From the NCBI GenBank assembly GCA_964606485.1, contig CAZSGP010000002.1, positions 138,766-202,765 of the forward strand: DNA of 64,000 bases. Reading direction: 5' to 3'. Of the stretch, positions 38,824 to 63,421 are shown in pieces (positions within the stretch are counted from its first letter, which is position 1; every line of letters starts with the position of its first letter). The notes under the pieces are model-generated. The model was not told where the DNA came from and ran no database searches. It saw nothing but the letters and a program-made list of their open reading frames with translations. A program made the position numbers and the translations under genes. The DNA is from an uncultured Planctomycetia bacterium (GTDB lineage Bacteria; Omnitrophota; Gorgyraeia; 2-02-FULL-51-18).

Positions 38824-38852
38824 TTGTTCCGACCCTTTAACATAAAATTTAC

Positions 38853-38925
38853 GGGTCCTGCCGGCGGTTGTCCGTTCAGAACCACCTACGGTGGCTTCCG
38901 AGACGGACGCCTACCGCCGTCACCC
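38853..38925 (+). repeat. 75-nt palindromic repeat element, copy 1 (supplies the last 3 codons and TGA stop of ybeY)
   Basis: gggtcctgccggcggttgtccg...cggacgcctaccgccgtcaccc, flanked by the complementary extension aaaatttacggg/cccgtaaatttt. The central hairpin variant is gaaccacc-tac-ggtggcttc. Confidence 0.85.
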
Positions 38926-39339
38926 GTAAATTTTAGATAATATAAGTTCTTGCCGACTAAACATTTTCTTTTTGTCCGCCGGCTTCTGATCATCATACCC
39001 TAAAAGGTGAAGCGTGCCATGAATCAAATAACGCGCAAGCTCCTCTTTGAATGAAATCTTGAGTTCTTTCGAAAACGATTTGGCCATGTCCACCGAGACA
39101 ACCAAGTCACCCAGATAATCCGACTCTGGCCCAGGGCCAGCGCCGAACGAAATGACGTCGGTGGCATAATCGTGTTTCAGGAATTTTTTGTTGATCTGTC
39201 GAATCTTGCGGTTGTCCGTCAAAAGGACGCTCACCGAGCAGCGCTTCGATTTTTCAGTTTTTAATGTGTGGTGAACAACGCTTGAAACCCAGGACTGTGT
39301 GACGCTTGGCAACTTTTTAGAAAAGCGGACTTCTATCAA
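38920..39339 (-). CDS. ybeY: endoribonuclease YbeY (rRNA maturation factor)
   Basis: 139 aa with the HGTLHLLGYDD zinc-binding motif. The final IYG and the stop codon are encoded within repeat copy 1. Confidence 0.88.
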   Translation of the reverse strand: MIEVRFSKKLPSVTQSWVSSVVHHTLKTEKSKRCSVSVLLTDNRKIRQINKKFLKHDYATDVISFGAGPGPESDYLGDLVVSVDMAKSFSKELKISFKEELARYLIHGTLHLLGYDDQKPADKKKMFSRQELILSKIYG

Positions 39340-41072: not shown

Positions 41073-41096
41073 AATATTCTCTAACCGAAATTGAAC

Positions 41097-41169
41097 GGGT
41101 CCTGCCGGCGGTTGTCCGTTCGAAAGCCACCTTCGGTGTTTTCGAGACGGACGCCTACCGCCGTCACCC
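41097..41169 (+). repeat. 75-nt palindromic repeat element, copy 2 (supplies the last codons and TGA stop of hisS)
   Basis: The same core as copy 1, with the different complementary flank gaaattgaacggg/cccgttcaatttc. The central hairpin is gccacc-UUCG-gtg. Confidence 0.85.
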
Positions 41170-42423
41170 GTTCAATTTTCGAATAATCTCCGTTACCTCA
41201 GTAAACTTAAGCTCTTGTTGACTGCCGTCGTTCAAATCTTTTAAAACAGCGACGCCTTTTTCAATTTCGTTGTCGCCCAAAATAATCATGTACCGACTTC
41301 CGGACTTGTCGGCTGAGCGCATTTGGCTTTTCAGCGACTTGCCGTCCAAATCCATAAAGGCCGCTATTTTATGCGACCGGAGCTCTCCAAGCAACCCAAA
41401 AGCGACTTGAAATGCTTTCTCCCCCAAAGCTGCAAGGAACACGCTGTTTTTTCGGACGGGTGCTGCGTCGTTTTGTTTTTCGAGACACATTTGAAGACGT
41501 TCAACGCCTACTGCAAAACCGACCGCCCCCAATTTTGGCCCACCGAAGGATTCGATTAAATTATCGTAGCGACCGCCTGCTCCCAGCGCGTCTTGAGCGC
41601 CAAGCTTTGGGTGAGTAACTTCAAAAACCGTCAGCGTGTAATAATCAAGACCTCTCACCATAAAATCATCTTGAATGTAGGAAATTTTGAGTGCGTCGAG
41701 CGCTCGGCAAACTTTTTCGTAATGGGCTGTGCTCTCCGCGGTTAGGAATTTTTTTAGCGGCGGCGATTGGCGTGCGATTTTCCGGCACGTTTCAACTTTG
41801 CAATCTAAAAGACGAAATACATTTTTTTCCATGCGGCGTTTGCAGTCCTCGCACAATTCTTTGGCGTGAGGCTTAAAAAATTCAAGAAGCTCTCCCCTAA
41901 AAATTTTTCGCTCGTCGAAAGTTCCGAGATTATTCAGTTTTACTTTGTAGCCATGCGCACCAACAGCGTCTAAAAAAGTGGTGAGTGCGTGAATGGCTTC
42001 GGCGTCGGCGTAAGGGCTATTTGTCCCAAGCTCCTCAACTCCGATCTGATGAAACTGTCTTAAGCGACCCGCTTGGGGACGTTCGCTTCGAAACATCGGA
42101 CCCATGTAATAAAACTTTTCGAGACCATTTTTTTTGTCGAGTTCATTTTCGAGATACGCGCGGACCACACCCGCTGTTCCTTCAGGACGAAGCGCTACAC
42201 GCGTACCAGAGCGATCTTCAAATTCATACATTTCTTTTTGGACAATGTCGGTCTCGGTTCCGATCGCGCGGCAAAAAACATCTTTCTCTTCCATGATGGG
42301 CGTGCGGAGTTCTTGAAATCCAAATTTGGAAAATGTTTCGCGCGCTTTGGATTCGATAAAAGAAAAATCCAGTGCGTCTTGGGAAAAAATATCGTGCGTG
42401 CCGCGAAGGCGTTGAAAATTCAC
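41164..42423 (-). CDS. hisS: histidine--tRNA ligase
   Basis: 419 aa with class-II motifs and a HisRS anticodon-binding C-terminus. The final NG and the stop codon lie within repeat copy 2. Confidence 0.9.
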   Translation of the reverse strand: MNFQRLRGTHDIFSQDALDFSFIESKARETFSKFGFQELRTPIMEEKDVFCRAIGTETDIVQKEMYEFEDRSGTRVALRPEGTAGVVRAYLENELDKKNGLEKFYYMGPMFRSERPQAGRLRQFHQIGVEELGTNSPYADAEAIHALTTFLDAVGAHGYKVKLNNLGTFDERKIFRGELLEFFKPHAKELCEDCKRRMEKNVFRLLDCKVETCRKIARQSPPLKKFLTAESTAHYEKVCRALDALKISYIQDDFMVRGLDYYTLTVFEVTHPKLGAQDALGAGGRYDNLIESFGGPKLGAVGFAVGVERLQMCLEKQNDAAPVRKNSVFLAALGEKAFQVAFGLLGELRSHKIAAFMDLDGKSLKSQMRSADKSGSRYMIILGDNEIEKGVAVLKDLNDGSQQELKFTEVTEIIRKLNG

Positions 42424-42452
42424 GGGAGAAATGGGCGCGGTAAACCGCGCCC

Positions 42453-46261: not shown

Positions 46262-49200
46262 TTAAGCGGCCTGGCGAATCAGGCGGTCGGCGAGTCTCGC
46301 GGCAGAAAAAGCCTGATTGAGCGTGAGTTTGGCGAGTGCCGGAATCGCTGAGAGCTCCGGATTGTCGAGATCGCTAGCATTTTGAATCTCGTGGCCCGTA
46401 AGCCGCCTCATCAATGAAAAAATATCTGCGAAGTTTTGATCATCCATCTTACGCATCCGCGCGCGTTTTAGACCGATTCGAATTTGCGCTCTAAAATTAG
46501 GGATGTCCCCTTCTTCTAAAGTTTTATGATAAGCAGGAATCGTTTTTGGATCCAACACTCCGCCCGGCGTGGTCAAAAGTGCGGCAGGAATATCGCCAAG
46601 ATCTGTTCCGTCCTCTACCAAATTATCCAGAAGAGACGGTTCCATAGCCTCGATTCTTTTTTTCACTTTTTCGATAAGCTGCGTATCCGTACTTCTTAAA
46701 ATAAATTTTGCATCCTTCTTTGCTAAACTCATTTCGCGGATCAAGATGGGCAGAATGATCTCATCAAACCCTTTAAGCGTCGGCCCAAATTGGTCCAGAT
46801 CCACGATGCCAGCCGCCTCCCCTTGTCCTTGCTTAAGATCTGCCAACGCCAAATTATTTTGCTCGTAAAGCATTTTGAAATCGGCCATGGGCATTTGAAT
46901 TTGAACCCGTTCAGCCTGAGCAGAGCCGGTTATTTTTTTCCAATTCACCTTTTGACTGCCATTGAGCGTCAGGGTTGCGTCGCCGTTGTCGACGTAATCC
47001 AACTCCAGAGCGCCCAACACCAGCTTGGCTGATTTTTCTTCGGTGGCCTGGCGGACACATGCCACGAAAATAACGGTCTCTTCCGGCAAAATCTTTCGCC
47101 CTACTTGTTCTTTGGCCAGCCGCGCGGCTGCGCTTTGCCTGTGTTCCTTTAAATAATGATGGAGCAAAAGTTTGGCCCTATGAAAAATATACGACTGACC
47201 CCGGAACTCGGAACGCTTACGAATCAAGACCTGTTTATTGTTGAGCTTGTTTTTAAAGCTTCGAAGAATTGCTAATTTAACACCGCCATTAGCAAATCCT
47301 TCGCGAATGATTTTTAAATCCGGCTCGAGACTTTGACGCACCGGTTCCGGTAGCGTGCGCACCACGGCGGCCAAGTATTTTATGTGCTCGCTCATACTCG
47401 CGAGCGTAAAATCAGACTCTATAAATACGCCTGAAAATTTTTCAATGACTCTTGAAAAATCCCGCTCAAGCATCTGGTCGATCTCTGCATCTTGCGCTTT
47501 TGAAAGCTCGGCATCCAGCGCTCGCAAAAGTGCCGCTTTCTCGATCTTGTCGTTTAAGAATTTCCCGATCACCTCGCGGCTAAAATAATCCCGCGCCTCC
47601 GGCTGAAGCCGGGTCCACTCCTCGGCAATTTTTAACCGCCAAGCACGCCGGACCTGCTCTCCCTGTACAACTCCCTTAAATGAGATGCCCGCCAAATTCC
47701 GCTTTGGAATAAAAGCCGCGGCGAGACCCGGTAAACGTAAAATGACCGCGTAATCGATCCAGAACTGTTTAAGGCGTTGGGGAATTTGAGTAACGGAACT
47801 GCCGTCAGAATCAGCAAGCCGCGCGCCGCTCTGAGACTCCTTGTCCGACTCGCTCCAAATATCAGAAATTTTTTTAAAAGCAGCCGGAATCCTGTGAATT
47901 GCAGTATCGGCCATAAAATAAATCACAAAACCCAGCCCATAGGCTGTCAGGAGGCTTTGGTAGGCTTGTAATTTAAATACGAAACTTAGTTGATGGAGGT
48001 CAGAGAGGGCCCAAGTGATATTTCCCAAAAAAAGCCAATAAATCGCAAGTCCTTGGGCAAACAGTGCAATCCAGGGCCTTTGATTCCAAATACCGGTCCG
48101 TAGTAGACCGATCGGAATCGCAACCCCCATAGAAAAGGGCAAGATCCCGCACAAAAAAACAGAAAATCGTGGCAAGTGGTGGCCAAAAACCGGCAGAGTG
48201 TATCCCGACGCAGCTCCGGGCGGATCGACATGGGCTACAACGCCCGGTACCCAAAGAACCGCTTGATTCAAAATTCCTGCAAAGGCGGTCGCTTCGGGGT
48301 TAAATCCGACGGCGGAGATCCCGCCCATTAAAAAAACGGGGATGTGGTGAAAAAGCTCGTGGCAAAAAAATGAAATCGCATTGAGCGGAAGGTAGTAACC
48401 AAAGTACGGGTCAAAAACAAAACTAAATCCGACGACAAAAAAAATCAGCTTCCGCCACTGCCAATCATTTTCGGCATTCAATGCTTTTTTCACAATTAAG
48501 GCGTGTAGAGGCAACATCGCAGCGGCATTCGCTAGATATTCGTAAGCGAGCCTCGCGCCCTGAGCGCGTTGTCCGGACCGAAGCGCGAACAACTCTTCCG
48601 CGGAAACTTCCACCACCGTCTGGTTATTAAAACGAGTATCGAGCAACGAGCAAATGCTGTCCCAACTTAGAAGAATATCAGGGTAATCCGTCCGATCGGG
48701 TCTTTGATAGCGAATGCCTACGCTCTCTGACGTCGCAACGATCATCGCTTTCTGCGCCGAACTTTTCATCGGCCGCTCAATCATCAGCTTGCGCGCATTT
48801 TTAGACTTGAGAGCCGCTTCGAGCTTCGGCATAATTCCAACAATGATCGCTCTTGTGTCTGCACGGAAACTACTGACTAAAATTTTTGGGGTTGTTGCTG
48901 GCAAACTGTCGATCGCTTCAATAATTTCCCGCGCTTTAGCCGCAGAATAGTCGTCCAACACCGGTGCTTTGTTGGGAAGTAAATGCTGGTGCAAAACCGC
49001 GCCTTGAGGCGCGCGGCCCTTCTCTAGGGAAACAGCAACAATGCCCTGACAATTGAACAATCCACCTGTCGCGAGCATCGTGTGGCTATTCAATTCGCCC
49101 GAAATCATCGCGGACTTTTCAGGAGAACCGAATTCCGCATTCAAAATCTTGAAACCCTGCCCACGGTAAACATCAGTCGCCACTCTCATGAACGGTGCCT

Positions 49201-52200
49201 CCTCCCGAAACCGTTGATAGGCGTTTAAGGCGAGCCGCGCGCCAATTTTTGATGCTGCTTTGCGACGATAATAGCGGAATCGTTCAGCACGTTTTCGGGC
49301 GTGCCCAATAGCCGACCGCCGCTCAGACAAAGGATTGTAATCGCGGCGCATGTCGGCCATCTTGGATAAAATTCGGGCACTGTGCTTCCAAGAGATGAAT
49401 GTTATTTCCACCCCCATGGCGCGCGCGAATCTTCGAAATTGAATTCTCTCGTTCCTACTACCAATTGGACGGCGCGCCGCCCTCCAAGCCCGCCATGAAT
49501 TCCAGACCATGTCGGAATCAATGGGGCCAACTTTTCCGGCGATCAATCGCCCATCCACCGACCGGATGAAAGTGACTCCAAGCGGCGAAATATGAAAATT
49601 TTGAGTGCCCATATTCACGAAATTAGCGATATCGTGCTCGGAGGGCATTTTGAGCCAATTCACGTTGTATCCCGGGCCCATATTGTGTGTGTGAAAATCA
49701 ATTATAATCCGGCCTTGTTTAGCGAGCTCATTCAATTCACCGGTCAGCTCAACGTTCGTTTTATCTCCCGTGACGAGTAACCATTCGCCGCTGTCGAGAT
49801 AGATGATTTCCACTTCGAAATCAAGATGTAGCATCCAACGCATGTCCGACAAGTTTGGCATGTAACGAATTTGGAATACCCGCTGGCGGCCCGGCCGCAC
49901 TAGTCGCAACGCTTCCCGCAATTTCGCCATCGTTAAAATGGGATAACTGCCTTTTTTAGTAGCTTGTTTTTGCCAAATAGCAACGCTCGAGGAAAGCCGC
50001 GCGCCAAATTTCTCATCGGCCAATCGACGCGCCTCTTTTCGCCGCTCGCGCGTTAAAATACTTCCTCTTTTTGAAATCCAAAAACGGATCACCGAAAATA
50101 AACGGGCCGAGTAGCGGTTCGCCGGACCCACGTAAACGCGATAGGCTAATTTCCGAATAAATTGCCCCGCCGTCATGTCCACCGCGATGTCGCCGCTGGG
50201 AGTTTGAAGAACTGCATAATCATGAACCGGACGATCCTGAATATAAATTCTTTCAATTCTTGAGGGGATATTTAATTCATACAGCGCATCCAGTAACAGT
50301 GCCGTCACCACCTGGCAGAAGCCGCCATCGGGTGCTCCATAAAAAAGAAGGGTCGCGTAACGATCTCTATCCCCTTCTTTCAAAGTTAATCGAAGTTCGC
50401 TGTTGTAGAGCGCCCCAATAAATTTTTTGAGTGCCGGGCCGTGAAGATTCATCGCCTTTCGGACCGATTCCAAGCTAATTTCCTCACTTCTTAATGAAGC
50501 GAACGCAAGAACGATCGACTCTTTGAATAAATCATGCATCAGTCGGTCTGCGTCCAACATGCTTTCGTGTTGTGCGTCACGGTCTGAGGACAATCTAGAA
50601 CCTTCGGAGAGCCGCGCGCCTCCCATTAGGCCTTCCAATAGAGCTACCTTCGTTTTTCCATCATCATAAAGGCGCTTGATGAGCTGGTGTTTTTTGGTAG
50701 TTCGGGCATTGATTTCAGCGATGGTTTCGGGTAAAGCGCCGGGCGCATCTGCCGCCGTCAGTAGCAGCGGCGAGTCGATTCTTTCAAGCTTCGCGCTCCA
50801 AGATTCAGAGGATGCTCTAATTCTATTTAACATCTCCAGATAACGTTCAGCAGCTTGGCGAACACGAACTTTATCTGTTCGGCCATCTTTCGCCAAACGA
50901 ATCAACAAATCCGCAAAAGATAAAAATCTTGCCACACTTTCTGAACTCACCCCAAGATCAGGGTCGATCACCGCGGGTGACGATAGATAAGCTAAATACC
51001 CTTCGGCATCTTCCAGGTCATCCTCATCGAAAAGAGGCGCGGATTCGAAATAGATCCTCATAGCCCGTAGAAGCAAGTAATGACGCCTGAGAATCGTCGC
51101 CTCTTCATCTTCTCCAAATCGCGAAATATCGAGATCAACTGACGCGGCATCGTAACCGAATCTTGCGCTCATTTGATCCAGACTCGGGGCAAGATCGGAC
51201 TGGTTTAAATTTAAAAAAATCCTCTTCACGGTATTAATTCCGGTGGACGAGGAAGCATCTCCCAGCTCACCCCGCTGATATAGATGGAACCAGCGATCAG
51301 CCGAATCATGTGTCAGCGACAACCCTTTTTGGGCCTGAGAAAGAACATCTTCTGGTCTAAGCGCGTCAACCTCACGAAAAACCTTTTCTTTTAAAGGATG
51401 ATCGACCGTAAGAAACGTTTGAATATCCGCGTTCCCGCCAAGATGCCTTAAGATCAGATTGCCCATCCACGGATCGGACAAAAGCGAGCTTTTGACGGCC
51501 AACCGCGCGCCCGACCCGTCTTTTGAAGTATCACCTCTCTCGATGCCTTTTTCACGATCCATAAATTTACTGTCTTTTATAAATTTTTCTACAACGCCAA
51601 ACGTCATTAAAACCGAGGAAAGATCTAAAATAATATCAACGACTATACGGCGAATTTGTCTAGCGCTTCTGGGACGAATCTTCCGAATGCGATCGACGTG
51701 CCCTTCAAACCTAAATATCATTCGGTGCCACAACCGTCTAAAGTCATCAAACATGGCGTACGCAAAACCGCAGGTGGGTCCGGCAAGATAAATAAGCAGA
51801 CACCCCCCAACCCCAAAAATTAGAAAGTCCAGAGAAGCGCCGGATGAGAGGCGCGCGCCGTCTTCACGTACCACCCACTTACTCGGAGCAACGGTGAGAT
51901 CAGCAACAAAATCGACATCGGCTGCCGATTTTTGCGCATACAGCTCCCAAGCTTGGTTCTTTAACTCGATCAACCTTCGGCGAAACTCGATAAACGCGTC
52001 ATCTCCTTTATAGAGCTGCCGAGAACGCTCGACAAATCTCTCCGTGGTTGCGCGCGAATCGCTTTTCAAGCGAACGTGAAGATGAGGTATCGCATCCCGT
52101 TCAAAATTCAATAAATGCGCGCACGTCCAATCCACTAGAAGGACATCGCCTTTTTTAAAGGTAAATTCTTTTGGGCCCATTTTGCGCTCGTTGCGATGAT

Positions 52201-55200
52201 AGGCGTTGGGGACCATAATGCGGGTTTCTTGGGATACGTCTTGATTCAGGAAATGACTGCGCAGCTTGTCAAAAAATCGACTCACCTCTTCAACCTGGTA
52301 AGTGTCTTCGTACTCCGTAGTAAACGGCTTTCCGGCACTCACTATTTTTTTAAAAATAGCTGCTTTTTTTTCGGGATCAATCAGGAATAGGTCTATATCG
52401 AGAGGCTCGTTTGGAGTCGAAACGCCGATCAGTCTGAGAGCGGGCGCGAGAGCGCGTGTTAGCGTCGTTTTTCCGCCGCCCGAAAGACCATCAAAAAATA
52501 CAATACCGCCGGACGGCAAATGTTTTTTGATTTGCCCTGCAAGTTGCTCCGCCAATCTTTTATAAGCTTCAACTTCTTCCGGCGAAATTTGAGCGGACCT
52601 GCCTCGCTCTGCGGCCAGCCGCATATTAAGCTCTGACGAATAAGCGATCTTGCCGTCAGCGGCCAATCTCGACGCCGCCTTTAGCGCTTGATTCAGATAA
52701 GCGATGGCGCGCTTTTGATCGTCCTTTTTAAGCGCATGCAGTCCCAAGATGTGGGATACGGCAAATAAATTTCTTTGTGGGAAAAGCTCCTGAATCAAAA
52801 TCGCCACATCGAAATAGTCATCGGTGCGAATCGAGTTGTCGTCCTTGAGCAGAGAAAAAATAACCGCTAAATCTTCAAGCGCCACATTCCCCGTTTTTTC
52901 TTTGGCGTCGGCTGAGCCGCCGATTCCGCCAATTGAGCCGTCAAAATGCGTCATTCCCTCTTCGAGAGCGACGAGAACATTCACGAGGCCCAAACCGTGA
53001 TCGTGCAAATGCCACCCGAATTCCAAACCTTCAAACGGCCCGCCCTTTTTATTTCTTTTCAAGACAAACCGTGAAAATTTCCGAATATCCTCAGGCTTTG
53101 CCCTTCCGGAAGTATCGCTCAGCCAAATTTTTGTGACCCCATTGTCCCGGAGCGCCCTGATATTGGCGGCCAGCATTTTAAAAGTAACCTTCTCTTTGCT
53201 GTAAGAGGGAATCGCCGAAATATAACCGTGCTTTTCGATCGAATGCCCAGTTTCCCGTTCATAGCCGGCAATCTCGTTCAGCATGGGGACCACTTTCGCC
53301 GTAAAATCCTCCAGCGGGCTCTTGTCGATTCTGGCTGCCCGCTCCATTTTTTTTGCCATTTTTTCCTTCAGCTTAGCTTTCTCGTCAGCGCCAGTCTCGA
53401 TAGCAATGCTTTTTTCTAATTCTTTAATATAGCGCTCGGAAACTTGTTGATTGTCTTTTAGATACTCCTTCGAGGCCGACGTCCACACCGCGATCGCTTG
53501 AGGTCGAGCGTCGCTCTCACGCAATTTGCTCCAGGATTCTTGATTGAACAGCAAATGGCGCACCGTCGGCACTTCGTGATCTTTGCGATATTCGGCTAGC
53601 CATCTGGCAAATTCAGGAGAATCTGCCATCGATGCATAGACCCCGAACGAAGTCGCTTCGAGCGGAAGACCAAGCTTAAACAAAAGCTTCGCGAGTTTTT
53701 TCTTAGATTCGGTGGTTAGAATCGGCTTCAGGCTTTGAATGCCGTCCCGCAGGGTGTCGTCGCTGATGTAAATTTTATTTATGTTCAGGATTTTTTTAAC
53801 TTTTTCTAAATCCACTCCGGAAGCGTTGAGTTTCGAAATAAATTCGTCAATCCGCGCTTTGATATCATCAAACTCTACGGTCTCCGCTAGCCTCGTAGCT
53901 TGAATTTTTAGCTCTTCTGCGGAAATTTCAACCACCGTCTGGTTATTAAAACGAGTATCGAGCAGCGAGCGAATGCTGTCCCAACTGAGAAGAATATCAG
54001 GGTAATCCGTTCGATCAGGTTTTTGAGTGCGGATACCCACACTCTCCGACGTCGCAACGATCATCGCTTTCTGCGCAGAACTTTTCATCGGTCGCTCAAT
54101 CATCAACATGCGCGCGTTTTTAGACTTGAGGGCCGCTTCGAGCTTCGGCATCATGCCAACAATAAGCGCTCGTGTATCTGCGCGAAAACTGCTGATTAGA
54201 ATTTTTGGGGCGGGACTAGGCAAGCTGTCAGCGGCCTCTATGATTTCTTGCGCTTTGATCGCCAAATAGTCGTCCGATGCTGGAGCTTTACTGGGAAGTA
54301 AATGCTGGTGTAAAACCGTTCCCTGAGTCGCGCGGCCCTTCTCCAGCGAAACAGCTACAGCTCCCTGACAATTGAACAATCCGCCTGTCGCAAGCATCGT
54401 CCGGTCATTCAACTCCCCGGAAATCATCGCAGACTTTTCAGGAGAGCCAAATTCCGCGTTCAATATTTTGAAACCCTGGTCACGGTAAACATTAGTCTCC
54501 GCTCTCATAAACGGTGCTTTCTCCCGAAACCGTTGATAAGCATTTAAGGCGAGGCGGGCGCCATCTCCACCTTTTTGTTGACCACTCACCACCTCCGGAG
54601 TGGAAATGGGTAGTTTCTCGAAATCATTTCGAAGAAGCCCAACTGTATCGCGCCCCATCAACCCTGCGTCCATCACGGACACGGTCTGAAGCATGCTCGC
54701 CGGAACGCTTAAAAACTTTGGAGTGGAATTCGACCCCAAAAGAATCTGCTCGTACCGCTTTTGATTGGTTTCGTGCAGGACCTGAGGGCGAAGTGAAATG
54801 TAGGAAATATTTTTAGAACGCAGAATCGACTTGAGATTGGCGGTGTGATAGCCGCCTGTGATCAAAACTGATAACAGCGGGTCCTGCCGGCGGTTGTCCG
54901 TTCGAAAGCCACCTTCGGTGTTTTCGAGACGGACGCCTACCGCCGTCACCCGCTGCTGCTCAGCTTGATTCAGCATATTCTCAATAAATTTTTCATCGCG
55001 CTTAAGTGTTAGTGTGTAAAACGCTTCCGCGCTTGTAACGATTTCGTCGAAACCCGGCTCAAGGAAGGCGGCGTGTTCATAAAATTGCTTCTGTTCCATG
55101 ATTTTTAAGTTCAGAAATCCGGTCAGCGGCTTGATGCTGTCGCCTGCTTTTTTGAATTCAGCGTATTCTTCAGGCGTTAGCTGAAAGTTAAACAGCTTTC

Positions 55201-56197
55201 GGTAAAAATAAAGCGTTCGGACAGAACGAAGCAAGTTTTGCTCATCCGGCGTTTGAGCCAAACTTTGAAAGACTTCATTTTCCATAGCCTTCTGCTCGGT
55301 CATTAAGTCTGAATAATTCAACGCCTTCGACGAACGAATGATTCTTTCGAGGATTGTCTTCTGATGCTTCGGGGAAACCTTGAGACGATCCAGCTTCTTC
55401 TCGAGTGCTTTTAGTTTTTGGAGGCGTTTGAAATTCGGATAACGACCCTTGATGGGCTGACTCATCAGAATATCCGCGTAAACCACGAAGGAGGTTTCGC
55501 CTTTACGGTATTTCTCGTAAGAGTTTTCAAAGGATAAAAGGACAGGGTTTAGAATCCGGGGTTTCAGCACTTCAATCGTATTCTGAATTTTATCGAGATA
55601 ACTTTCAAAGCGTCCGCGCTCACTAGCCACACCGCGATACAGTTCTAGCGCTTGCCGGTATAAATCTTTGTCCTCTACGCCCCATAACTGAAAGTCGTGG
55701 TCAGATATAAGGTCTAAATATTCTTCGCCGTGAATCAGCCCCTTTTGAAGATAACTTCTGGCAATATTTTTTCTTTGCTCGGTGCTTCCGTATTGACGCA
55801 AGAAGGAAAGCGAGTCGTTTCCGAAGCCGCCTTCGACGAAAACCTGGATCTTATCGTCATTCCTGCGCAAGCGGGAATCTAATCGCTCTGATCCCCGCCT
55901 ACGCGGGGATGACTGGATATTTTTCGCCAAAATTAGATCAAGCGACTTCGCAAGATTGAGCTGTCCTGAAGGATTGGTGTGCGCATCCTGTAAGAGGATG
56001 ACGATCTGCGGACCACCATGCCACGCATCTTCCACAGTTGCCATCGAAGAAGGAATTGAAGGTAAAACGCTTTCAGCCCATTTCGCGCTTTGAAATTGCT
56101 GGAATTTCAGGAAGTCAAAACTTTTGGAATCAGGGTTCGCAAAACTTAAATCCTGCAGAAAAAAAGTAAAAACGAGCCCCAAGGAAATGGCTTTCAT
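46262..56197 (-). CDS. giant (3311 aa) multidomain membrane-associated protein of unknown function
   Basis: An uninterrupted 9,936-nt ORF. It has a signal-peptide-like N-terminus, a duplicated ~220-aa domain, a DRE-TIM/HMGL-like domain (DTLRDGIQS, DTSGRAKPEDI, HLHDHGLG...DGSIGGIGG), a P-loop motif (GLSGGGKTT), TM helices near aa ~1470 and ~1530, a TM bundle at aa ~2540-2760 with HELFHH, an in-frame 75-nt repeat insertion, and a recurrent GARL(A/S) motif. Confidence 0.75.
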   Translation of the reverse strand: MKAISLGLVFTFFLQDLSFANPDSKSFDFLKFQQFQSAKWAESVLPSIPSSMATVEDAWHGGPQIVILLQDAHTNPSGQLNLAKSLDLILAKNIQSSPRRRGSERLDSRLRRNDDKIQVFVEGGFGNDSLSFLRQYGSTEQRKNIARSYLQKGLIHGEEYLDLISDHDFQLWGVEDKDLYRQALELYRGVASERGRFESYLDKIQNTIEVLKPRILNPVLLSFENSYEKYRKGETSFVVYADILMSQPIKGRYPNFKRLQKLKALEKKLDRLKVSPKHQKTILERIIRSSKALNYSDLMTEQKAMENEVFQSLAQTPDEQNLLRSVRTLYFYRKLFNFQLTPEEYAEFKKAGDSIKPLTGFLNLKIMEQKQFYEHAAFLEPGFDEIVTSAEAFYTLTLKRDEKFIENMLNQAEQQRVTAVGVRLENTEGGFRTDNRRQDPLLSVLITGGYHTANLKSILRSKNISYISLRPQVLHETNQKRYEQILLGSNSTPKFLSVPASMLQTVSVMDAGLMGRDTVGLLRNDFEKLPISTPEVVSGQQKGGDGARLALNAYQRFREKAPFMRAETNVYRDQGFKILNAEFGSPEKSAMISGELNDRTMLATGGLFNCQGAVAVSLEKGRATQGTVLHQHLLPSKAPASDDYLAIKAQEIIEAADSLPSPAPKILISSFRADTRALIVGMMPKLEAALKSKNARMLMIERPMKSSAQKAMIVATSESVGIRTQKPDRTDYPDILLSWDSIRSLLDTRFNNQTVVEISAEELKIQATRLAETVEFDDIKARIDEFISKLNASGVDLEKVKKILNINKIYISDDTLRDGIQSLKPILTTESKKKLAKLLFKLGLPLEATSFGVYASMADSPEFARWLAEYRKDHEVPTVRHLLFNQESWSKLRESDARPQAIAVWTSASKEYLKDNQQVSERYIKELEKSIAIETGADEKAKLKEKMAKKMERAARIDKSPLEDFTAKVVPMLNEIAGYERETGHSIEKHGYISAIPSYSKEKVTFKMLAANIRALRDNGVTKIWLSDTSGRAKPEDIRKFSRFVLKRNKKGGPFEGLEFGWHLHDHGLGLVNVLVALEEGMTHFDGSIGGIGGSADAKEKTGNVALEDLAVIFSLLKDDNSIRTDDYFDVAILIQELFPQRNLFAVSHILGLHALKKDDQKRAIAYLNQALKAASRLAADGKIAYSSELNMRLAAERGRSAQISPEEVEAYKRLAEQLAGQIKKHLPSGGIVFFDGLSGGGKTTLTRALAPALRLIGVSTPNEPLDIDLFLIDPEKKAAIFKKIVSAGKPFTTEYEDTYQVEEVSRFFDKLRSHFLNQDVSQETRIMVPNAYHRNERKMGPKEFTFKKGDVLLVDWTCAHLLNFERDAIPHLHVRLKSDSRATTERFVERSRQLYKGDDAFIEFRRRLIELKNQAWELYAQKSAADVDFVADLTVAPSKWVVREDGARLSSGASLDFLIFGVGGCLLIYLAGPTCGFAYAMFDDFRRLWHRMIFRFEGHVDRIRKIRPRSARQIRRIVVDIILDLSSVLMTFGVVEKFIKDSKFMDREKGIERGDTSKDGSGARLAVKSSLLSDPWMGNLILRHLGGNADIQTFLTVDHPLKEKVFREVDALRPEDVLSQAQKGLSLTHDSADRWFHLYQRGELGDASSSTGINTVKRIFLNLNQSDLAPSLDQMSARFGYDAASVDLDISRFGEDEEATILRRHYLLLRAMRIYFESAPLFDEDDLEDAEGYLAYLSSPAVIDPDLGVSSESVARFLSFADLLIRLAKDGRTDKVRVRQAAERYLEMLNRIRASSESWSAKLERIDSPLLLTAADAPGALPETIAEINARTTKKHQLIKRLYDDGKTKVALLEGLMGGARLSEGSRLSSDRDAQHESMLDADRLMHDLFKESIVLAFASLRSEEISLESVRKAMNLHGPALKKFIGALYNSELRLTLKEGDRDRYATLLFYGAPDGGFCQVVTALLLDALYELNIPSRIERIYIQDRPVHDYAVLQTPSGDIAVDMTAGQFIRKLAYRVYVGPANRYSARLFSVIRFWISKRGSILTRERRKEARRLADEKFGARLSSSVAIWQKQATKKGSYPILTMAKLREALRLVRPGRQRVFQIRYMPNLSDMRWMLHLDFEVEIIYLDSGEWLLVTGDKTNVELTGELNELAKQGRIIIDFHTHNMGPGYNVNWLKMPSEHDIANFVNMGTQNFHISPLGVTFIRSVDGRLIAGKVGPIDSDMVWNSWRAWRAARRPIGSRNERIQFRRFARAMGVEITFISWKHSARILSKMADMRRDYNPLSERRSAIGHARKRAERFRYYRRKAASKIGARLALNAYQRFREEAPFMRVATDVYRGQGFKILNAEFGSPEKSAMISGELNSHTMLATGGLFNCQGIVAVSLEKGRAPQGAVLHQHLLPNKAPVLDDYSAAKAREIIEAIDSLPATTPKILVSSFRADTRAIIVGIMPKLEAALKSKNARKLMIERPMKSSAQKAMIVATSESVGIRYQRPDRTDYPDILLSWDSICSLLDTRFNNQTVVEVSAEELFALRSGQRAQGARLAYEYLANAAAMLPLHALIVKKALNAENDWQWRKLIFFVVGFSFVFDPYFGYYLPLNAISFFCHELFHHIPVFLMGGISAVGFNPEATAFAGILNQAVLWVPGVVAHVDPPGAASGYTLPVFGHHLPRFSVFLCGILPFSMGVAIPIGLLRTGIWNQRPWIALFAQGLAIYWLFLGNITWALSDLHQLSFVFKLQAYQSLLTAYGLGFVIYFMADTAIHRIPAAFKKISDIWSESDKESQSGARLADSDGSSVTQIPQRLKQFWIDYAVILRLPGLAAAFIPKRNLAGISFKGVVQGEQVRRAWRLKIAEEWTRLQPEARDYFSREVIGKFLNDKIEKAALLRALDAELSKAQDAEIDQMLERDFSRVIEKFSGVFIESDFTLASMSEHIKYLAAVVRTLPEPVRQSLEPDLKIIREGFANGGVKLAILRSFKNKLNNKQVLIRKRSEFRGQSYIFHRAKLLLHHYLKEHRQSAAARLAKEQVGRKILPEETVIFVACVRQATEEKSAKLVLGALELDYVDNGDATLTLNGSQKVNWKKITGSAQAERVQIQMPMADFKMLYEQNNLALADLKQGQGEAAGIVDLDQFGPTLKGFDEIILPILIREMSLAKKDAKFILRSTDTQLIEKVKKRIEAMEPSLLDNLVEDGTDLGDIPAALLTTPGGVLDPKTIPAYHKTLEEGDIPNFRAQIRIGLKRARMRKMDDQNFADIFSLMRRLTGHEIQNASDLDNPELSAIPALAKLTLNQAFSAARLADRLIRQAA
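48612..49245 (-). repeat. intragenic duplication, unit B (~640 bp) within the giant ORF
   Basis: Paralogous to 53925..54565. Encodes the second copy of the ~220-aa domain, immediately N-terminal of the HExxH transmembrane domain. Confidence 0.85.
53925..54565 (-). repeat. intragenic duplication, unit A (~640 bp) within the giant ORF
   Basis: About 88-90% nucleotide identity to 48612..49245. Encodes GARLALNAYQRF...MLATGGLFNCQG...VVEISAEEL. Confidence 0.85.
54879..54951 (+). repeat. 75-nt palindromic repeat element, copy 3 (in-frame insertion inside the giant ORF)
   Basis: The same core, with the complementary flank cagcggg/cccgctg. In the host frame it reads RVTAVGVRLENTEGGFRTDNRRQDP. Confidence 0.85.
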
Positions 56198-56199
56198 AA

Positions 56200-60230: not shown

Positions 60231-60245
60231 TTTCGTTCCTCGTTT

Positions 60246-60947: not shown

Positions 60948-60954
60948 CCTACGT

Positions 60955-61203
60955 TTATTTAAATTTAATTCCGGCCTTTTTTAAAATCGAGCGAACGGTT
61001 TCGGAAGGCTTTGCACCCTTCTTGATCCAGTGTTCAATGCGCTCATTTTTCACGCTCATTTCGGCGGGTTCCTTGGATGGATCCCAATACCCAACTTCTT
61101 CCAGAAAACGTCCATCGCGCGGAAACTTGCTGTCCGTCACCACGATGCGGTGCTTAATCTTCTTCTTGGTTCCGGTTGATTTCATGCGAATTACGACTGC
61201 CAT
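60955..61203 (-). CDS. rpsP: 30S ribosomal protein S16
   Basis: MAVVIRMK...RDGRFLEEVGYWDP is the canonical S16 sequence. The start was moved to the internal Met at aa 4 of the ORF. No rimM lies between rpsP and trmD. Confidence 0.88.
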   Translation of the reverse strand: MAVVIRMKSTGTKKKIKHRIVVTDSKFPRDGRFLEEVGYWDPSKEPAEMSVKNERIEHWIKKGAKPSETVRSILKKAGIKFK

Positions 61204-61230
61204 TTCATTCACCCCTCTCTCTCTCTTTTT

Positions 61231-62499
61231 TTAACGATTATCTTTTTCTCTTCTGATCTTAGCGCCTAAACTTTGTAATTTTTGAACCAAATTTTCATAG
61301 CCGCGGTCTAAATGATACACGCGCGACACTTCAGTCTCGCCTTCAGCTACCAGTCCCGCAAGCACGAGGGCGGCACTCGCGCGCAAATCGGACGCCATCA
61401 CTGGCGCGCCACTCAAAGTTTTTTTGCCGCTCACAATCGCGCTGTGTCCTTCAAGCATGATGTTGGCGCCCATGCGGTTAAGCTCCGAAACGTGCATGAA
61501 GCGCTCTGGGTAAATCTTTTCCGTGATCACGCTGATTCCCGGCACCACGCACATCAAAGCCATCATCTGCGCCTGCAAGTCGGTCGGAAAGCCCGGGTAC
61601 GGCAAAGTCGTCACGGAAACCGGACGGAGGATTTTCTCACGACGCACCCGTACATGTCCATTTTTCTCGGTGATCATAACACCGGCGTCTTTAAGCTTAT
61701 CGAGCATCGCGCCGAGCATGTGAAGCTGCATGTTTTTAAGCGTCACGTCGCCCTTGGTCATGGCCGAGCCAATAATATACGTTCCCGCTTCAATGCGGTC
61801 CGGAATAATCGAGTAGGTTGCGCCATTCAAATGCTTCACACCTTCAATTTCAATCGACGGAGAACCGAGACCCTCGATCTTCGCGCCCATTTTCTTCAGA
61901 TAATTACCAAGGTCGACAACCTCGGGCTCGCAAGCGGCGCTATCAATCACTGTTTTACCTTGGGCGAGACACGCGGCCATCATGACATTGGCAGTGCCAA
62001 GAACACTCGACCCAAACGCTCCGCCCAAATAAATGCGACCGCCCATTAATTTTTTAGTCTTTGCCATCACATAACCATGGTCCAGCGTAATGTCGGCGCC
62101 AAGCGAGCGGATTCCCTTGATATGCAAATCGATCGGACGTGGACCAATGACGCAACCGCCCGGAAACGAAACTTGCGCATGACCAAAACGCGCGAGTAGC
62201 GGTCCAAGCAAACAAATCGAGCCGCGCATTGTGCTGACAATCTTATAATCGAGAATTGGAGACTTGATCCCGCTCGGATCCACAGTGACCGTGCTTCCTT
62301 CGTGGGTCACTTTTGCGCCGAGTAATTTCAAAATTTTAATCATGGTCAAAATGTCCGAAACAGACGGGACATTTTTGATCACAGATTTTTGCTTACTCAG
62401 AACAGTGGCCGCTAAAATAGGAAGTGCTGCGTTTTTGGCGCCGCTCACTTCCACCGTGCCCTCTAGCTTATGGCCACCTTGAATAACGAGTTTATCCAT
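61231..62499 (-). CDS. murA: UDP-N-acetylglucosamine 1-carboxyvinyltransferase
   Basis: 422 aa; the N-terminus LVIQGGHKLEGTVEVSGAKNAALPILAA and the EPSP-synthase fold are typical of MurA. Confidence 0.95.
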   Translation of the reverse strand: MDKLVIQGGHKLEGTVEVSGAKNAALPILAATVLSKQKSVIKNVPSVSDILTMIKILKLLGAKVTHEGSTVTVDPSGIKSPILDYKIVSTMRGSICLLGPLLARFGHAQVSFPGGCVIGPRPIDLHIKGIRSLGADITLDHGYVMAKTKKLMGGRIYLGGAFGSSVLGTANVMMAACLAQGKTVIDSAACEPEVVDLGNYLKKMGAKIEGLGSPSIEIEGVKHLNGATYSIIPDRIEAGTYIIGSAMTKGDVTLKNMQLHMLGAMLDKLKDAGVMITEKNGHVRVRREKILRPVSVTTLPYPGFPTDLQAQMMALMCVVPGISVITEKIYPERFMHVSELNRMGANIMLEGHSAIVSGKKTLSGAPVMASDLRASAALVLAGLVAEGETEVSRVYHLDRGYENLVQKLQSLGAKIRREKDNR

Positions 62500-63421
62500 G
62501 CTGAATTTTTAACACTCTCTCAATTCCGTTAAAATCTTTGATAAATTCCAAATTTTTGTAATTCGAACTATCTTTTAAAATTTTGCGCAACGCCTTCGAT
62601 TGCCCCGCGCCGATTTCCATCAAAAGAAAACCGCCCTTTTTTAAATAACGCGGCGCTTCATCCAAAATTTTCTCGATGATCTGAAGTCCGTTTTTTCCAC
62701 CGTCCAGCGCGAGCCTTGGGTCGCACTTCACTTCAGGCGACAAACCGTTTAATTCCTTTTTGGGAATATACGGAGGATTTGAAACAATCACATCCCATTG
62801 CGCTCCCGGCTTTATCGAACTAAAAAGGTCGCTTTTTTGAAAATGAATCTGCTTCCCAACCCCATGCAATCTAGCGTTTTTACGAGCTAAATTCAGCGCT
62901 TTTTGGCTCTTATCGAGAGCCGTCATTCTACAGTCGGGTAAAGCCAGAGTCAAGCTGACCGCAACGCACCCTGATCCAGTACCTAAATCTAGAATTTCGG
63001 GCTCGGGGTCCTGCCGGCGGTTGTCCGCTCGAAAGCCACCTTCGGTGTTTTCGAGACGGACGCCTACCGCCGTCACCCCTCGCTCTTGACTCTTAGCTAG
63101 AACAGATAGGGTTTCGCTTACCAAAATCTCCGTCTCGGGCCGTGGAATCAGCGCGTCTTTGGTCGTGATGAACCGGTGCCCATAAAACCAAGCTTCTCCC
63201 AAGATATGCTGAAGCGGCTCGCGCTTGATGCGCCGCTTGAGCGCCTTCTCAATCTTTTTTTGGGTGACACTGGAAACCGGCTGATCCTTTAAAAAAAAAT
63301 CCGCTCGGCCAAGCTTCGTAAAATGGCCCAGTAAAATTTCAGCTTCCGCTTGGGCGGATGCTATTTTATTTTTTTTAAATATATTTCGGATATTATTTAA
63401 TAAATGAAAGGTGGTGAGCAA
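62492..63421 (-). CDS. prmC: release factor glutamine methyltransferase (PrmC/HemK) with in-frame repeat-element insertion
   Basis: 309 aa; NPPY motif (VSNPPYIPKKE), SAM-binding LDLGTGSG. A 25-aa insertion GVTAVGVRLENTEGGFRADNRRQDP, encoded by repeat copy 4, sits just before the MTase domain. Confidence 0.9.
   Translation of the reverse strand: MLTTFHLLNNIRNIFKKNKIASAQAEAEILLGHFTKLGRADFFLKDQPVSSVTQKKIEKALKRRIKREPLQHILGEAWFYGHRFITTKDALIPRPETEILVSETLSVLAKSQERGVTAVGVRLENTEGGFRADNRRQDPEPEILDLGTGSGCVAVSLTLALPDCRMTALDKSQKALNLARKNARLHGVGKQIHFQKSDLFSSIKPGAQWDVIVSNPPYIPKKELNGLSPEVKCDPRLALDGGKNGLQIIEKILDEAPRYLKKGGFLLMEIGAGQSKALRKILKDSSNYKNLEFIKDFNGIERVLKIQHG
63006..63078 (+). repeat. 75-nt palindromic repeat element, copy 4 (in-frame insertion inside prmC)
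   Basis: The same core, with gttgtccgCtcgaaa as the one variant position. The flanks are only partly complementary (ctcgggg / cccctcg). Confidence 0.85.

What the first reader, a model, noticed from the sequence alone, without database searches (positions are those of the whole stretch)
38844..63078. Dispersed 75-nt structured palindromic element in four copies and one orientation, used both as in-frame coding insertions and as gene 3' ends
Core: gggtcctgccggcggttgtccg(t/c)tcgaaagccaccttcggtgttttcgagacggacgcctaccgccgtcaccc. Copies lie at 38853..38925, 41097..41169, 54879..54951 and 63006..63078. All host genes are on the minus strand, so the mRNA carries GGGUGACGGCGG...CCGCCGGCAGGACCC. In ybeY and hisS the frame reads ...GGG TGA, so the element donates the final residues and the stop codon. 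In the giant ORF and in prmC the +1 frame is open and adds the same 25 aa, VTAVGVRLENTEGGFR(T/A)DNRRQDP; in PrmC this falls in the linker right before the GTGSG SAM-binding motif. The element has long terminal inverted repeats and a central C(UUCG)G-type tetraloop hairpin. Copy 1 carries a compensated variant, gaaccacc-uac-gguggcuuc, suggesting structure conservation. The bases just outside the core are complementary to each other but differ in sequence between copies (aaaatttacggg/cccgtaaatttt, gaaattgaacggg/cccgttcaatttc, cagcggg/cccgctg). This pattern means either insertion into pre-existing palindromes or covarying extended stems. The behaviour matches Rickettsia palindromic elements, but the sequence is not an RPE that I recognise. 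The element is likely undescribed for this lineage.
Basis: seen in the sequence. Interest (0 to 1): 0.8.

Follow-up and report, generated by a model that had tools for sequence, protein, structure and literature searches.

The report
GC-rich palindromic mini-transposon inside Omnitrophota genes
A 75-base hairpin-forming selfish DNA repeat sits four times in 25 kb of an Omnitrophota genome, twice supplying a gene's stop codon and twice adding 25 amino acids in frame; it is an apparently undescribed member of a known class (REP/RPE/MITE-like repeats).

Summary
Four copies lie in one orientation at the stated coordinates. Their 22-nt ends are invariant and they fold into long hairpins of -48 to -57 kcal/mol. 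The element supplies GGG-UGA to ybeY and hisS. It adds 25 in-frame residues to a 3311-aa ORF and to PrmC. Sixteen Omnitrophota PrmC orthologues lack that insert.

New findings:
- The inserted unit is 75 nt.
- The terminal module GGGTCCTGC-CGGCGG...CCGCCG-TCA-CCC recurs in eight further hairpins: an Omnitrophota MAG (four copies), a deltaproteobacterial MAG, a Planctomycetia MAG and two metagenome contigs. Their inner stems have different sequences.
- Flanks are copy-specific inverted repeats. They reach about 10 bp at gene ends and are essentially absent inside coding sequence.
- Two independent short-read contigs end inside three of the copies.
- Another Omnitrophota PrmC carries an unrelated 61-nt hairpin in the same linker.

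Best reading: a non-autonomous palindromic mobile element that behaves like Rickettsia RPEs, intragenic REP dimers and Coxiella QMITEs. It is probably mobilised in trans through its conserved asymmetric base module. No transposase was found, and no Rfam family or paper matches the sequence. It is a new member of a known kind and moderately interesting. The inverted flanks and the cross-phylum module remain unexplained.

The parts
38852..38926 (+). Copy 1: 75-nt unit (73-nt core 38853-38925 plus the closing C...G). Its apical stem is a variant. On the minus-strand mRNA it supplies GGG-UGA, the last codon and the stop of ybeY.
38843..38852 (.). Copy 1 outer-stem arm TAAAATTTAC. It pairs with 38926-38935 (GTAAATTTTA). 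The 38926-38935 arm encodes the last codons of ybeY on the minus strand; this arm is intergenic.
   Evidence: (I1)
38926..38935 (.). Copy 1 outer-stem arm GTAAATTTTA. On the minus strand it reads ...AAAAUUUAC, the codons K-I-Y of ybeY.
41096..41170 (+). Copy 2: 75-nt unit. It supplies GGG-UGA to hisS (HisS ends ...IIRKLNG*). aspS starts 24 nt beyond the element at 41072.
41085..41096 (.). Copy 2 outer-stem arm CCGAAATTGAAC (intergenic side). It pairs with 41170-41181 as 9 bp, a 1-nt bulge, then 3 bp.
   Evidence: I2
41170..41181 (.). Copy 2 outer-stem arm GTTCAATTTTCG. On the minus strand it encodes R-K-L-N, the C-terminus of HisS.
54878..54952 (+). Copy 3: 75-nt unit inside the 3311-aa ORF. 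It is read in frame as (R)VTAVGVRLENTEGGFRTDNRRQDP, starting at residue 417 of the product.
63005..63079 (+). Copy 4: 75-nt unit with closing pair G...C inside prmC. It is read as GVTAVGVRLENTEGGFRADNRRQDP in the linker before the GTGSG SAM-binding motif. It has no outer stem and shares the flanks GGCTCG/CTCGC with locus L003.
38920..39339 (-). ybeY (host of copy 1; its stop codon TGA at 38920-38922 lies inside the element).
41164..42423 (-). hisS (host of copy 2; its stop codon TGA at 41164-41166 lies inside the element). The C-terminal length is normal compared with 15 orthologues.
46262..56197 (-). Giant ORF of 3311 aa (host of copy 3). Its only Pfam hit is an HMGL-like domain at residues 808-1131.
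62492..63421 (-). prmC (host of copy 4).

Best explanation
This is a short, non-autonomous, GC-rich palindromic mobile element of the REP/REPIN, RPE or MITE kind in an Omnitrophota genome.

Shown:
- A 75-nt unit is present in four near-identical copies at unrelated loci.
- It is absent from orthologous PrmC proteins.
- Short-read assemblies break inside it.
- Hairpin elements with the same ends occur in other genomes.

Shown, and explaining tolerance in genes:
- The unit is 25 codons long.
- Two of its three sense frames are open.
- The third frame begins GGG-UGA.
- An insertion inside a gene therefore adds a 25-aa loop at a permissive site (the PrmC linker, the giant ORF). An insertion at the very end of a gene costs only one extra glycine (ybeY, hisS).

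Inferred mechanism: the element is copied or moved in trans by an enzyme that was not found here. That enzyme would recognise the folded single strand through the invariant asymmetric base module, GGG / 6-nt UCCUGC opposite 3-nt UCA / CGGCGG:CCGCCG. The inner stem only has to pair. An HUH/Y1 (RAYT- or TnpA-like) transposase acting on single-stranded DNA is the leading candidate.

Inferred origin of the flanks: the copy-specific inverted repeats outside the unit arise after insertion. Replication template switching at the foot of a very stable hairpin (quasipalindrome correction) would overwrite the unconstrained intergenic flank with the complement of the coding flank. This would explain why the flanks are long at gene ends and missing inside coding sequence.
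For: Repeat and hairpin.

Insertion rather than ancestral sequence: 16 PrmC orthologues lack it. HisS has a normal C-terminal length, 15 residues after the conserved Q-x-E against 13-17 in orthologues, so the element sits at the natural gene end.

Repeat behaviour in an independent assembly: Logan contigs of SRR12487046 end inside copies 2, 3 and 4.

Same module elsewhere, with different inner stems: L001, L002, L004 and L006 (Omnitrophota MAG JACQQY01), L003, L005, L034 and L036. About 0.002 chance matches were expected for the 27 specified bases, and every true hit is a hairpin with GGG/CCC ends.

Pairing is maintained while sequence changes: copy 1 against copies 2-4; an A:U to C:G change in L001; a wholly different apical stem in L004.

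Flank pairing across 12 copies: 83.7% of cells are paired against 69% in shuffles (0 of 500 shuffles reach the observed value) and 36-55% when the partner is slid.

Stem length tracks constraint: 10, 9+3, 10 and 7 bp at gene ends or in intergenic DNA (w1, w2, L005, L001), against 4 and 0 bp inside coding sequence (w3, w4).

Natural hairpins in the window are GC-rich, have 4-10-nt loops and lie 25-30 nt beyond stop codons. The AT-rich, loopless outer stems that overlap the last codons look different.

No strand is consistently favoured by G:U pairs, and orientation relative to transcription differs between genomes. Both points argue against one RNA-level function.

Precedents: PMC3733652 (intragenic REP dimers of 20-30 aa, REP ends as stop codons, TIRs of RAYT-like genes sharing GGGGWSAS, which (C/G)GGGTGAC resembles); PMC5896051 (QMITE stop-codon and C-terminus donation, conserved stem with a divergent tip across classes); PMC7202029 and PMC8604942 (template switching that makes inverted repeats perfect).
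Against: - No transposase or other candidate partner gene lies in the 64-kb window or in the 8-kb loci examined.
- No Y1-transposase locus fetched carries the module.
- No empty site at DNA level could be obtained, because the closest relatives are only about 53-67% identical at protein level. Target-site structure and the origin of the inverted flanks are therefore inferred only.
- Only 12 copies are known in total, and the whole-genome copy number of the window organism was not measured.
- The GGGGWSAS resemblance is a 7-8 of 8 match to a degenerate motif and could be chance.
- Orientation is uniform within each genome (4 of 4 in the window; 3 or 4 of 4 in JACQQY01). That is also what a selected RNA element would show.
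- A 27-base module identical across MAGs labelled as three phyla is unusual for REP-type repeats, which normally differ even between related species.
Confidence: 0.6

Rival explanations
1. An ordinary double-stranded MITE. The two ends, GGGT(CCT)TGCCGGCGG and GGGTGACGGCGG, would be imperfect terminal inverted repeats of an insertion-sequence family that spreads horizontally. Each genome's short derivative would be moved by cut-and-paste with that IS's DDE transposase.
For: As duplex DNA the ends read as 12-15-bp imperfect TIRs. The ends are conserved across phyla while the interiors are unrelated, as expected if MITEs arise independently from related IS copies. Short non-autonomous elements mobilised through their TIRs are well documented (PMC10969869).
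Against: There are no direct target-site duplications; the flanks are inverted instead. The interior is a paired stem in all 12 copies and shows compensatory changes, which a DDE transposase does not require. The 3-nt asymmetry between the two ends is invariant.
Confidence: 0.15
2. A host-selected cis-acting RNA or DNA structure, such as an mRNA 3'-end stabiliser, a processing or attenuation site, or the binding site of a conserved protein. The conserved internal loop would be the recognition site, and the outer and inner stems would be kept by selection on structure.
For: Seven of the eight copies in other genomes were mapped against ORFs, and five of these have Pfam-confirmed flanking genes. 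They lie 10-33 nt downstream of a stop codon between co-oriented genes. Orientation relative to transcription is uniform within each genome. The internal loop is invariant and the stems covary. REPs are known to act as RNA hairpins (PMC3733652).
Against: Orientation on the mRNA is opposite in the window (GGGUGAC...) and in MAG JACQQY01 (GGGUCC...). Neither strand is consistently favoured by G:U pairs. Two copies lie inside coding sequence, where they add 25 aa. The element does not register as an intrinsic terminator. No Rfam family matches. The loop does not fit a canonical kink-turn, because the 2b-2n position would be G-G (read from the sequence).
Confidence: 0.12
3. The element homes into the apex of pre-existing hairpins, as IS1397 does in REP loops and IS1111 in QMITE2/REP. 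On this view the complementary flanks are the arms of the target.
For: Published cases exist of REP dimers lying inside palindromes and of IS elements targeting REP hairpins (PMC3733652, PMC5896051). Most copies sit just downstream of genes, where hairpins are common. This is a rival only for the origin of the flanks. It is compatible with the element being mobile.
Against: The outer stems run straight into the unit and leave no loop residues. In w1 and w2 one arm is the last 3-4 codons of a conserved protein, and the stems are AT-rich. The window's natural hairpins are GC-rich, looped and 25-30 nt beyond stops. Copies inside coding sequence have no such stem. Removing the unit would leave ybeY and hisS without a nearby in-frame stop (reading).
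Confidence: 0.1
4. The insert is neutralised at the RNA or translation level: excised from the mRNA, or bypassed by the ribosome like T4 gene 60 or the mitochondrial 'byp' elements. The take-off codon would be GGG, followed by UGA and a hairpin.
For: GGG-UGA followed at once by a strong hairpin, with GGA near the 3' end, loosely resembles a bypass cassette (read from the sequence).
Against: In PrmC and the giant ORF the frame in use is open and needs no bypass. In ybeY and hisS, stopping at UGA gives proteins of normal length. In most other genomes the element is intergenic.
Confidence: 0.03

Closest known systems
Rickettsia palindromic elements (RPE; Ogata et al. 2000, 2002, as cited in PMC5896051 and PMC3733652)
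   Same: Short hairpin-forming repeats inserted in frame into conserved protein genes. They add a peptide at a tolerated site, encode no transposase, and have no obvious target duplication.
   Different: There is no sequence relationship and the host phylum differs (Omnitrophota, not Alphaproteobacteria). This unit is 75 nt and GC-rich in a 47-49% GC genome, whereas RPE-1 is about 100-150 bp. Its end module is shared across phyla. Its flanks are copy-specific inverted repeats.
REP / REPIN repeats and their RAYT (Y1/HUH) transposases, including intragenic REP dimers and the 'TIR' repeats of RAYT-like TIRYT genes (PMC3733652)
   Same: Imperfect palindromes that fold into one long hairpin. Pairing is maintained by compensatory changes. 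They sit mostly just downstream of ORFs, their ends donate stop codons, and dimers inside ORFs encode 20-30 aa. They are abundant in some PVC bacteria. The end (C/G)GGGTGAC resembles the GGGGWSAS motif of TIRYT-associated TIRs.
   Different: There is no terminal GTAG or CGTC tag in the defined position. Only the window variant has an internal GTAG. CGTC straddles the stem and bulge and is not followed by an A/T-started 8-9-bp stem. No RAYT or TIRYT gene was found next to a copy. REP sequences usually differ between species, whereas this module is identical across phyla.
Coxiella burnetii QMITE1/QMITE2 (PMC5896051)
   Same: Long-hairpin non-autonomous elements found at the 3' ends of ORFs. They donate stop codons or C-terminal residues and are sometimes in frame inside ORFs. 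The QMITE2 stem is conserved in other proteobacterial classes while its palindromic tip diverges.
   Different: QMITEs are 150-190 bp or longer and have direct repeats at their ends (7-11 nt in QMITE2). This element is 75 nt and has inverted flanks, not direct ones.
Mitochondrial GC clusters and 'byp' elements of yeasts (own knowledge, not tested)
   Same: Short GC-rich palindromic mobile inserts in more AT-rich genomes, including inside coding sequence.
   Different: They are organellar and unrelated in sequence, and byps require translational bypass. Here the frame is simply open.

Membership tests
Rickettsia palindromic elements (RPE-1 to RPE-10) | Sequence similarity to an RPE consensus and occurrence in Rickettsia or its relatives | tested here: not met
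   The host is Omnitrophota by best protein matches. The exact end pattern hit only Omnitrophota, deltaproteobacterial and Planctomycetia MAGs. No direct alignment to RPE consensus sequences was possible, because none is held by the tools.
Rickettsia palindromic elements (RPE-1 to RPE-10) | Palindromic repeat inserted in frame in conserved protein genes and absent from orthologues | tested here: met
   PrmC and the giant ORF carry in-frame copies. Sixteen PrmC orthologues lack the segment.
GTAG- or CGTC-tagged REP / REPIN | A 20-40-nt stem-loop bearing a conserved GTAG or CGTC tetranucleotide at one end. CGTC types have an 8-9-bp stem starting with A/T pairs, a 4-5-nt loop and a CCA tail (PMC3733652) | tested here: not met
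   CGTC occurs in all copies but inside CCGC-CGTC-ACCC, across the stem and bulge, and is not followed by such a stem. GTAG occurs only in the window variant, as GGCG-GTAG-GC-GTCCGT. The other variants have NCGRRG at that position.
GTAG- or CGTC-tagged REP / REPIN | A RAYT (Y1/HUH) transposase gene flanked by the repeat in the same genome | not testable with these tools
   Only 64 kb of the window genome and 8-kb pieces of the other genomes are held. None encodes a Y1 transposase.
GTAG- or CGTC-tagged REP / REPIN | High copy number, tens to hundreds per genome, mostly extragenic | tested here: inconclusive
   There are four copies in 25 kb and none in the other 39 kb of the window. An independent assembly breaks inside three of them. 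A whole-genome count was not obtainable.
TIR repeats of RAYT-like 'TIRtrons' (PMC3733652) | TIR carrying GGGGWSAS and flanking a TIRYT gene | tested here: inconclusive
   The end is GGGGTGAC in w4 and L003 and CGGGTGAC in the other ten copies. Of 18 Y1-transposase loci fetched from viral contigs, one (L116) has GGGGACAGGT TIRs and none has this module.
Classical prokaryotic MITE | Terminal inverted repeats plus direct target-site duplications, with a related autonomous IS | tested here: not met
   Imperfect TIRs are present. The flanks are inverted, not direct, in 10 of 12 copies; w4 and L003 share a direct CTCG. No parent IS was identified.
Any Rfam RNA family | Score at or above the family's gathering threshold | tested here: not met
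   The whole window at gathering thresholds gave only six tRNAs. A permissive scan of copy 2 gave a best score of 20.7 bits against a threshold of 53.1, for an unrelated plastid hairpin.
Integron attC site | R''/R' boxes RYYYAAC...GTTRRRY flanking an imperfect hairpin with extrahelical bases | tested here: not met
   No GTTRRRY or RYYYAAC boxes are present in the sequence. The architecture is similar (conserved asymmetric base, variable tip) but the boxes are absent.

The most novel reading that the evidence does not exclude
The invariant asymmetric module, GGG / UCCUGC opposite UCA / CGGCGG:CCGCCG, is shared by hairpin elements in Omnitrophota, Planctomycetia and a deltaproteobacterial MAG. 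It would be the recognition site of an as yet undescribed, horizontally spreading single-strand hairpin mobilisation system. Insertion by that system would itself create an inverted duplication of the target flank, rather than the direct duplication or no duplication produced by known transposases.
Probability: 0.12. Interest if true: 0.7.

Novelty: new member of a known kind. Interest (0 to 1): 0.42.

Why it matters
Omnitrophota are uncultured nanobacteria whose mobile DNA has hardly been described. This element shows that RPE-style protein-coding palindromes are not peculiar to Rickettsia and a few proteobacteria. It also remodels core genes (prmC, hisS, ybeY) in this phylum. In practice, such repeats break short-read assemblies, shift stop codons and add spurious-looking loops to conserved proteins in MAG annotation. 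The element has a 27-base module identical across phyla and copy-specific inverted flanks. These give a compact, testable handle on how hairpin repeats are recognised and how palindromes grow after insertion.

Tried and rejected
1. Rfam, at gathering thresholds over the whole window and permissively over copy 2: no family.
2. Literature search for the end sequences as strings: only irrelevant primer hits.
3. An internal empty site from the giant ORF's own 5.3-kb repeat: the paralogous segment does not extend to the insertion point.
4. Exact-protein look-ups of PrmC to obtain the source record: not on record. murA and a truncated HisS did retrieve Logan contigs of SRR12487046.
5. A search for other proteins carrying the element's translation, using the five open frames joined together. 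The word-indexed search gave nothing. The full HMMER scan of 1.84 billion representatives gave one irrelevant hit at 37% identity. Neither search recovered the known PrmC or giant-ORF copies, so the negative result is uninformative.
6. The metagenome scan with loosened ends gave 35 loci. Only L034 and L036 are true; the rest are chance matches in GC-rich coding DNA with no GGG/CCC ends and no hairpin.
7. Viral contigs: no paired-end match. The 70 single-end matches are all chance.
8. RAYT/TIRYT lead: I took TIRYT sequences from a supplement of PMC3733652, aligned them and fetched 18 Y1-transposase loci. None has the module.
9. Kink-turn, loop E, attC, SECIS and translational bypass were considered and rejected on sequence grounds. 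In the UGA frame a UAG follows two codons later. The 2b-2n position would be G-G. There are no R boxes.
10. The 21-nt similarity of copy 1's flank to 19493 and 35806 (family D6) lies inside unrelated coding sequence and was set aside as probable chance.
11. The intrinsic-terminator scan does not flag the elements.

Full report
**1. The observation**

The four stretches were read directly.
All are on the + strand and none has a mismatch.
- Shuffled sequence gives no match even with three mismatches allowed. A looser scan finds no further degenerate copy in the window.
- Copies 2 and 3 are identical. Copy 4 has one T>C that turns a G:U pair into G:C. Copy 1 has a different apical stem that still pairs.
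- With 13-nt flanks each copy folds into one long hairpin of -48.5 to -56.8 kcal/mol, 4.4 to 7.5 standard deviations below shuffles, on either strand.

**2. The hosts**

Pfam confirms YbeY (38920-39339), HisS (41164-42423) and PrmC (62492-63421), all on the minus strand.
- The fourth host is a 3311-aa ORF whose only Pfam hit is an HMGL-like domain.
- The ybeY and hisS ORFs end on the element's own TGA (...SKIYG*...IIRKLNG*). PrmC and the giant ORF read the element as VTAVGVRLENTEGGFR(A/T)DNRRQDP.
- Counting codons shows that the inserted unit in the two internal copies is 75 nt: the 73-nt core plus one closing pair, C...G in copy 3 and G...C in copy 4.
- Five of the six reading frames are open. 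The only closed one is the sense frame that begins GGG-UGA.

**3. Insertion, not ancestral sequence**

The closest PrmC relatives are all Omnitrophota, so the window comes from that phylum. An identical PrmC lies on a 401-kb NCBI contig.
- In an alignment with 16 orthologues the 25 residues are absent. They fall in a length-variable linker directly before PEILDLGTGSG.
- For HisS, 15 orthologues end 13-17 residues after a conserved Q-x-E. The window protein ends 15 residues after it. The element therefore sits at the natural end of the gene and costs one glycine.
- The YbeY Pfam match likewise runs to three residues from the end.

**4. Independent evidence that it is a repeat**

The same organism is present in the Logan assembly of run SRR12487046.
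- One contig spans window positions 41143-48641 and ends inside copy 2.
- Another contig runs between copy 3 and copy 4 and ends inside both.
- Short-read assemblers break where a sequence longer than the k-mer is repeated.

**5. Relatives elsewhere**

A scan of one genome per GTDB species for GGGTCCTGCCGGCGG-N30-55-CCGCCGTCACCC gave six loci. About 0.002 chance matches were expected.
- Four loci are in one Omnitrophota MAG (JACQQY01), one in a MAG labelled deltaproteobacterium and one in a Planctomycetia MAG.
- A looser metagenome scan added two true cases (L034, L036) among 33 chance hits in GC-rich DNA.
- All eight are hairpins with GGG...CCC ends. Their interiors share no sequence with the window element, or with each other across genomes.
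- What is conserved is therefore a module at the base of the hairpin. It runs GGG:CCC, then six unpaired bases (UCCUGC) opposite three (UCA), then CGGCGG:CCGCCG.
- Inside that module lies a second asymmetric loop and a stem that only has to pair.
- Within JACQQY01 the copies differ by a compensated A:U to C:G change, and L004 has a wholly different apical stem.

**6. The flanks**

Across the 12 copies the bases just outside the module pair with each other.
- The first position pairs in 12 of 12 copies and the next four in 9-11 of 12.
- Overall 83.7% of cells are paired, against 69% in shuffles (0 of 500 shuffles as high) and 36-55% when the partner is slid.
- Each copy has its own flank sequence, so this is not a diverging extension of the element. 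Copies 1-3 have nearly identical cores and unrelated flanks.
- Stem length tracks constraint. It is 10 bp (copy 1), 9+3 bp (copy 2), 10 bp (L005) and 7 bp (L001) at gene ends or between genes. It is 4 bp and none in the two copies inside coding sequence.
- In copies 1 and 2 one arm is the last three or four codons of a conserved protein.
- The natural hairpins of this window are different: GC-rich, with 4-10-nt loops, and 25-30 nt beyond stop codons.
- I therefore favour growth of the palindrome after insertion. Replication template switching at the foot of a very stable hairpin is a documented mutational process (PMC7202029, PMC8604942). It would overwrite the unconstrained side.
- Homing into existing hairpins, or an insertion chemistry that duplicates the flank in inverted form, are not excluded. 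No empty site could be obtained because relatives are too distant.
- Copy 4 and L003 share the flanks GGCTCG/CTCGC. In that variant the unit may extend a few bases further.

**7. RNA element or DNA element**

- Seven of the eight copies in other genomes were mapped against ORFs, and five of these have Pfam-confirmed flanking genes. They lie 10-33 nt after a stop codon between co-oriented genes.
- Orientation is uniform within a genome but opposite between genomes. The mRNA carries GGGUGAC... in the window, L003 and L005, and GGGUCC... in JACQQY01.
- G:U pairs favour the plus strand in three copies and the minus strand in others.
- The elements do not register as intrinsic terminators.
- The internal loop does not fit a kink-turn, loop E, attC boxes or a SECIS.
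- This pattern fits a DNA-level selfish element better than one conserved RNA function, though it does not exclude local RNA effects.

**8. Comparison with what is known**

No Rfam family matches and no paper in the held library contains the end sequences. The behaviour, however, is well precedented.
- Di Nocera et al. (PMC3733652) describe REP dimers inside ORFs that encode 20-30 aa and REP ends that supply stop codons. They describe REP dimers lying inside palindromes and a PVC bacterium rich in intragenic REPs. They also describe RAYT-like Y1 transposase genes flanked by inverted repeats that share GGGGWSAS.
- The end of this element, (C/G)GGGTGAC, fits that motif fully in two copies and at seven of eight positions in ten. 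This is a lead, not a test.
- I rebuilt several of those transposases from the paper's supplement and fetched 18 related loci. None carries the module.
- Coxiella QMITEs (PMC5896051) also donate stop codons and C-termini. They keep a conserved stem with a divergent tip across bacterial classes, but have direct repeats at their ends.
- The element fails the defining tags of GTAG and CGTC REPs and lacks the direct duplications of classical MITEs. It has no sequence or lineage link to RPEs.
- It works like these families without being a member of any described one.

**9. Verdict**

This is a real and apparently undescribed family of palindromic non-autonomous elements: a new member of a known kind.
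- Confidence is high for what is seen: a repeat, an insertion, a hairpin, frame tolerance and relatives in other phyla.
- Confidence is moderate for mobility in trans and low for the specific enzyme.
- Two features deserve follow-up: the 27-base module identical across phyla, and the copy-specific inverted flanks.

Noticed in passing
L043 2737-2797 (= L044 3350-3410); L045 about 1520-1585: The PrmC gene of another Omnitrophota genome (MHFI01000055, protein P0016) carries an unrelated 61-nt perfect GC-rich hairpin in frame in the same linker before GTGSG: GTCATCCTCGCGCCCGCC...GGCGGGCGCGGGGATGAC, -48 kcal/mol. P0003, P0004 and P0005 have shorter, related remnants ending ...GGGGATGAC (peptide GMTAT). 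The PrmC linker is thus a recurrent landing or tolerated site for palindromic inserts in this phylum.
   Followed up: partly
L042 (window about 54929-63050) and L134 (window 41143-48641): Logan contigs of run SRR12487046 from the same organism end inside element copies 2, 3 and 4. One also ends inside the giant ORF's internal repeat. This explains why this region fragments in short-read assemblies.
   Followed up: yes
window 63000-63005 / 63079-63084 and L003 692-697 / 769-774: Copy 4 (inside prmC) and the copy in the deltaproteobacterial MAG (intergenic) share the same immediate flanks, GGCTCG...CTCGC. These could form G:C and C:G pairs around a 2x2 loop. They suggest a sub-variant whose unit is a few bases longer, or a shared target preference.
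   Followed up: partly
window 38889-38914 and equivalents (minus-strand reading GGCG-GTAG-GC-GTCCGT...): Only the window variant has a GTAG tetranucleotide directly 5' of its inner hairpin, the arrangement typical of GTAG-tagged REPs. The variants in other genomes have NCGRRG at that place.
   Followed up: partly
window 19493-19513 and 35806-35826: Two 21-nt stretches, TTA(G/A)A(A/T)TTTACGGGTGTTGCT, are 90% alike and resemble the left flank of copy 1 (AAAATTTACGGGT). Both lie inside unrelated coding sequence: a 147-aa ORF and the glycyl-tRNA synthetase beta subunit gene. This is probably chance.
   Followed up: partly
window 36399-36481: The glyQ-glyS intergenic region holds three adjacent GC-rich hairpins: CCCCTCCTTGGTAAGGAGGGG, its near reverse complement CCTCCCCTTACCAAGGGGAGG, and GTCCCCCACGTTCTTCGGGGGAC. 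There is no Rfam match, and the first hairpin has no other copy in the window.
   Followed up: partly
window 359-1549 and 15689-16879: There are two 396-aa ORFs in the positions of tufA and tufB. One follows fusA in the str operon and the other follows a tRNA cluster upstream of secE-nusG. They are identical over at least 300 nt.
   Followed up: no
window 46262-56197: The 3311-aa ORF has only one recognisable domain (HMGL-like, residues 808-1131). It contains an internal 300-nt repeat, 89% identical, at 48593-48892 and 53912-54211, with 5319 nt between starts.
   Followed up: no
L005, 17-25 nt upstream of the element (plus orientation of the element): An isolated CGGGTCCT octamer, the first eight bases of the unit, lies 25 nt before the full copy in the Planctomycetia MAG. 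It could be a remnant or chance.
   Followed up: no
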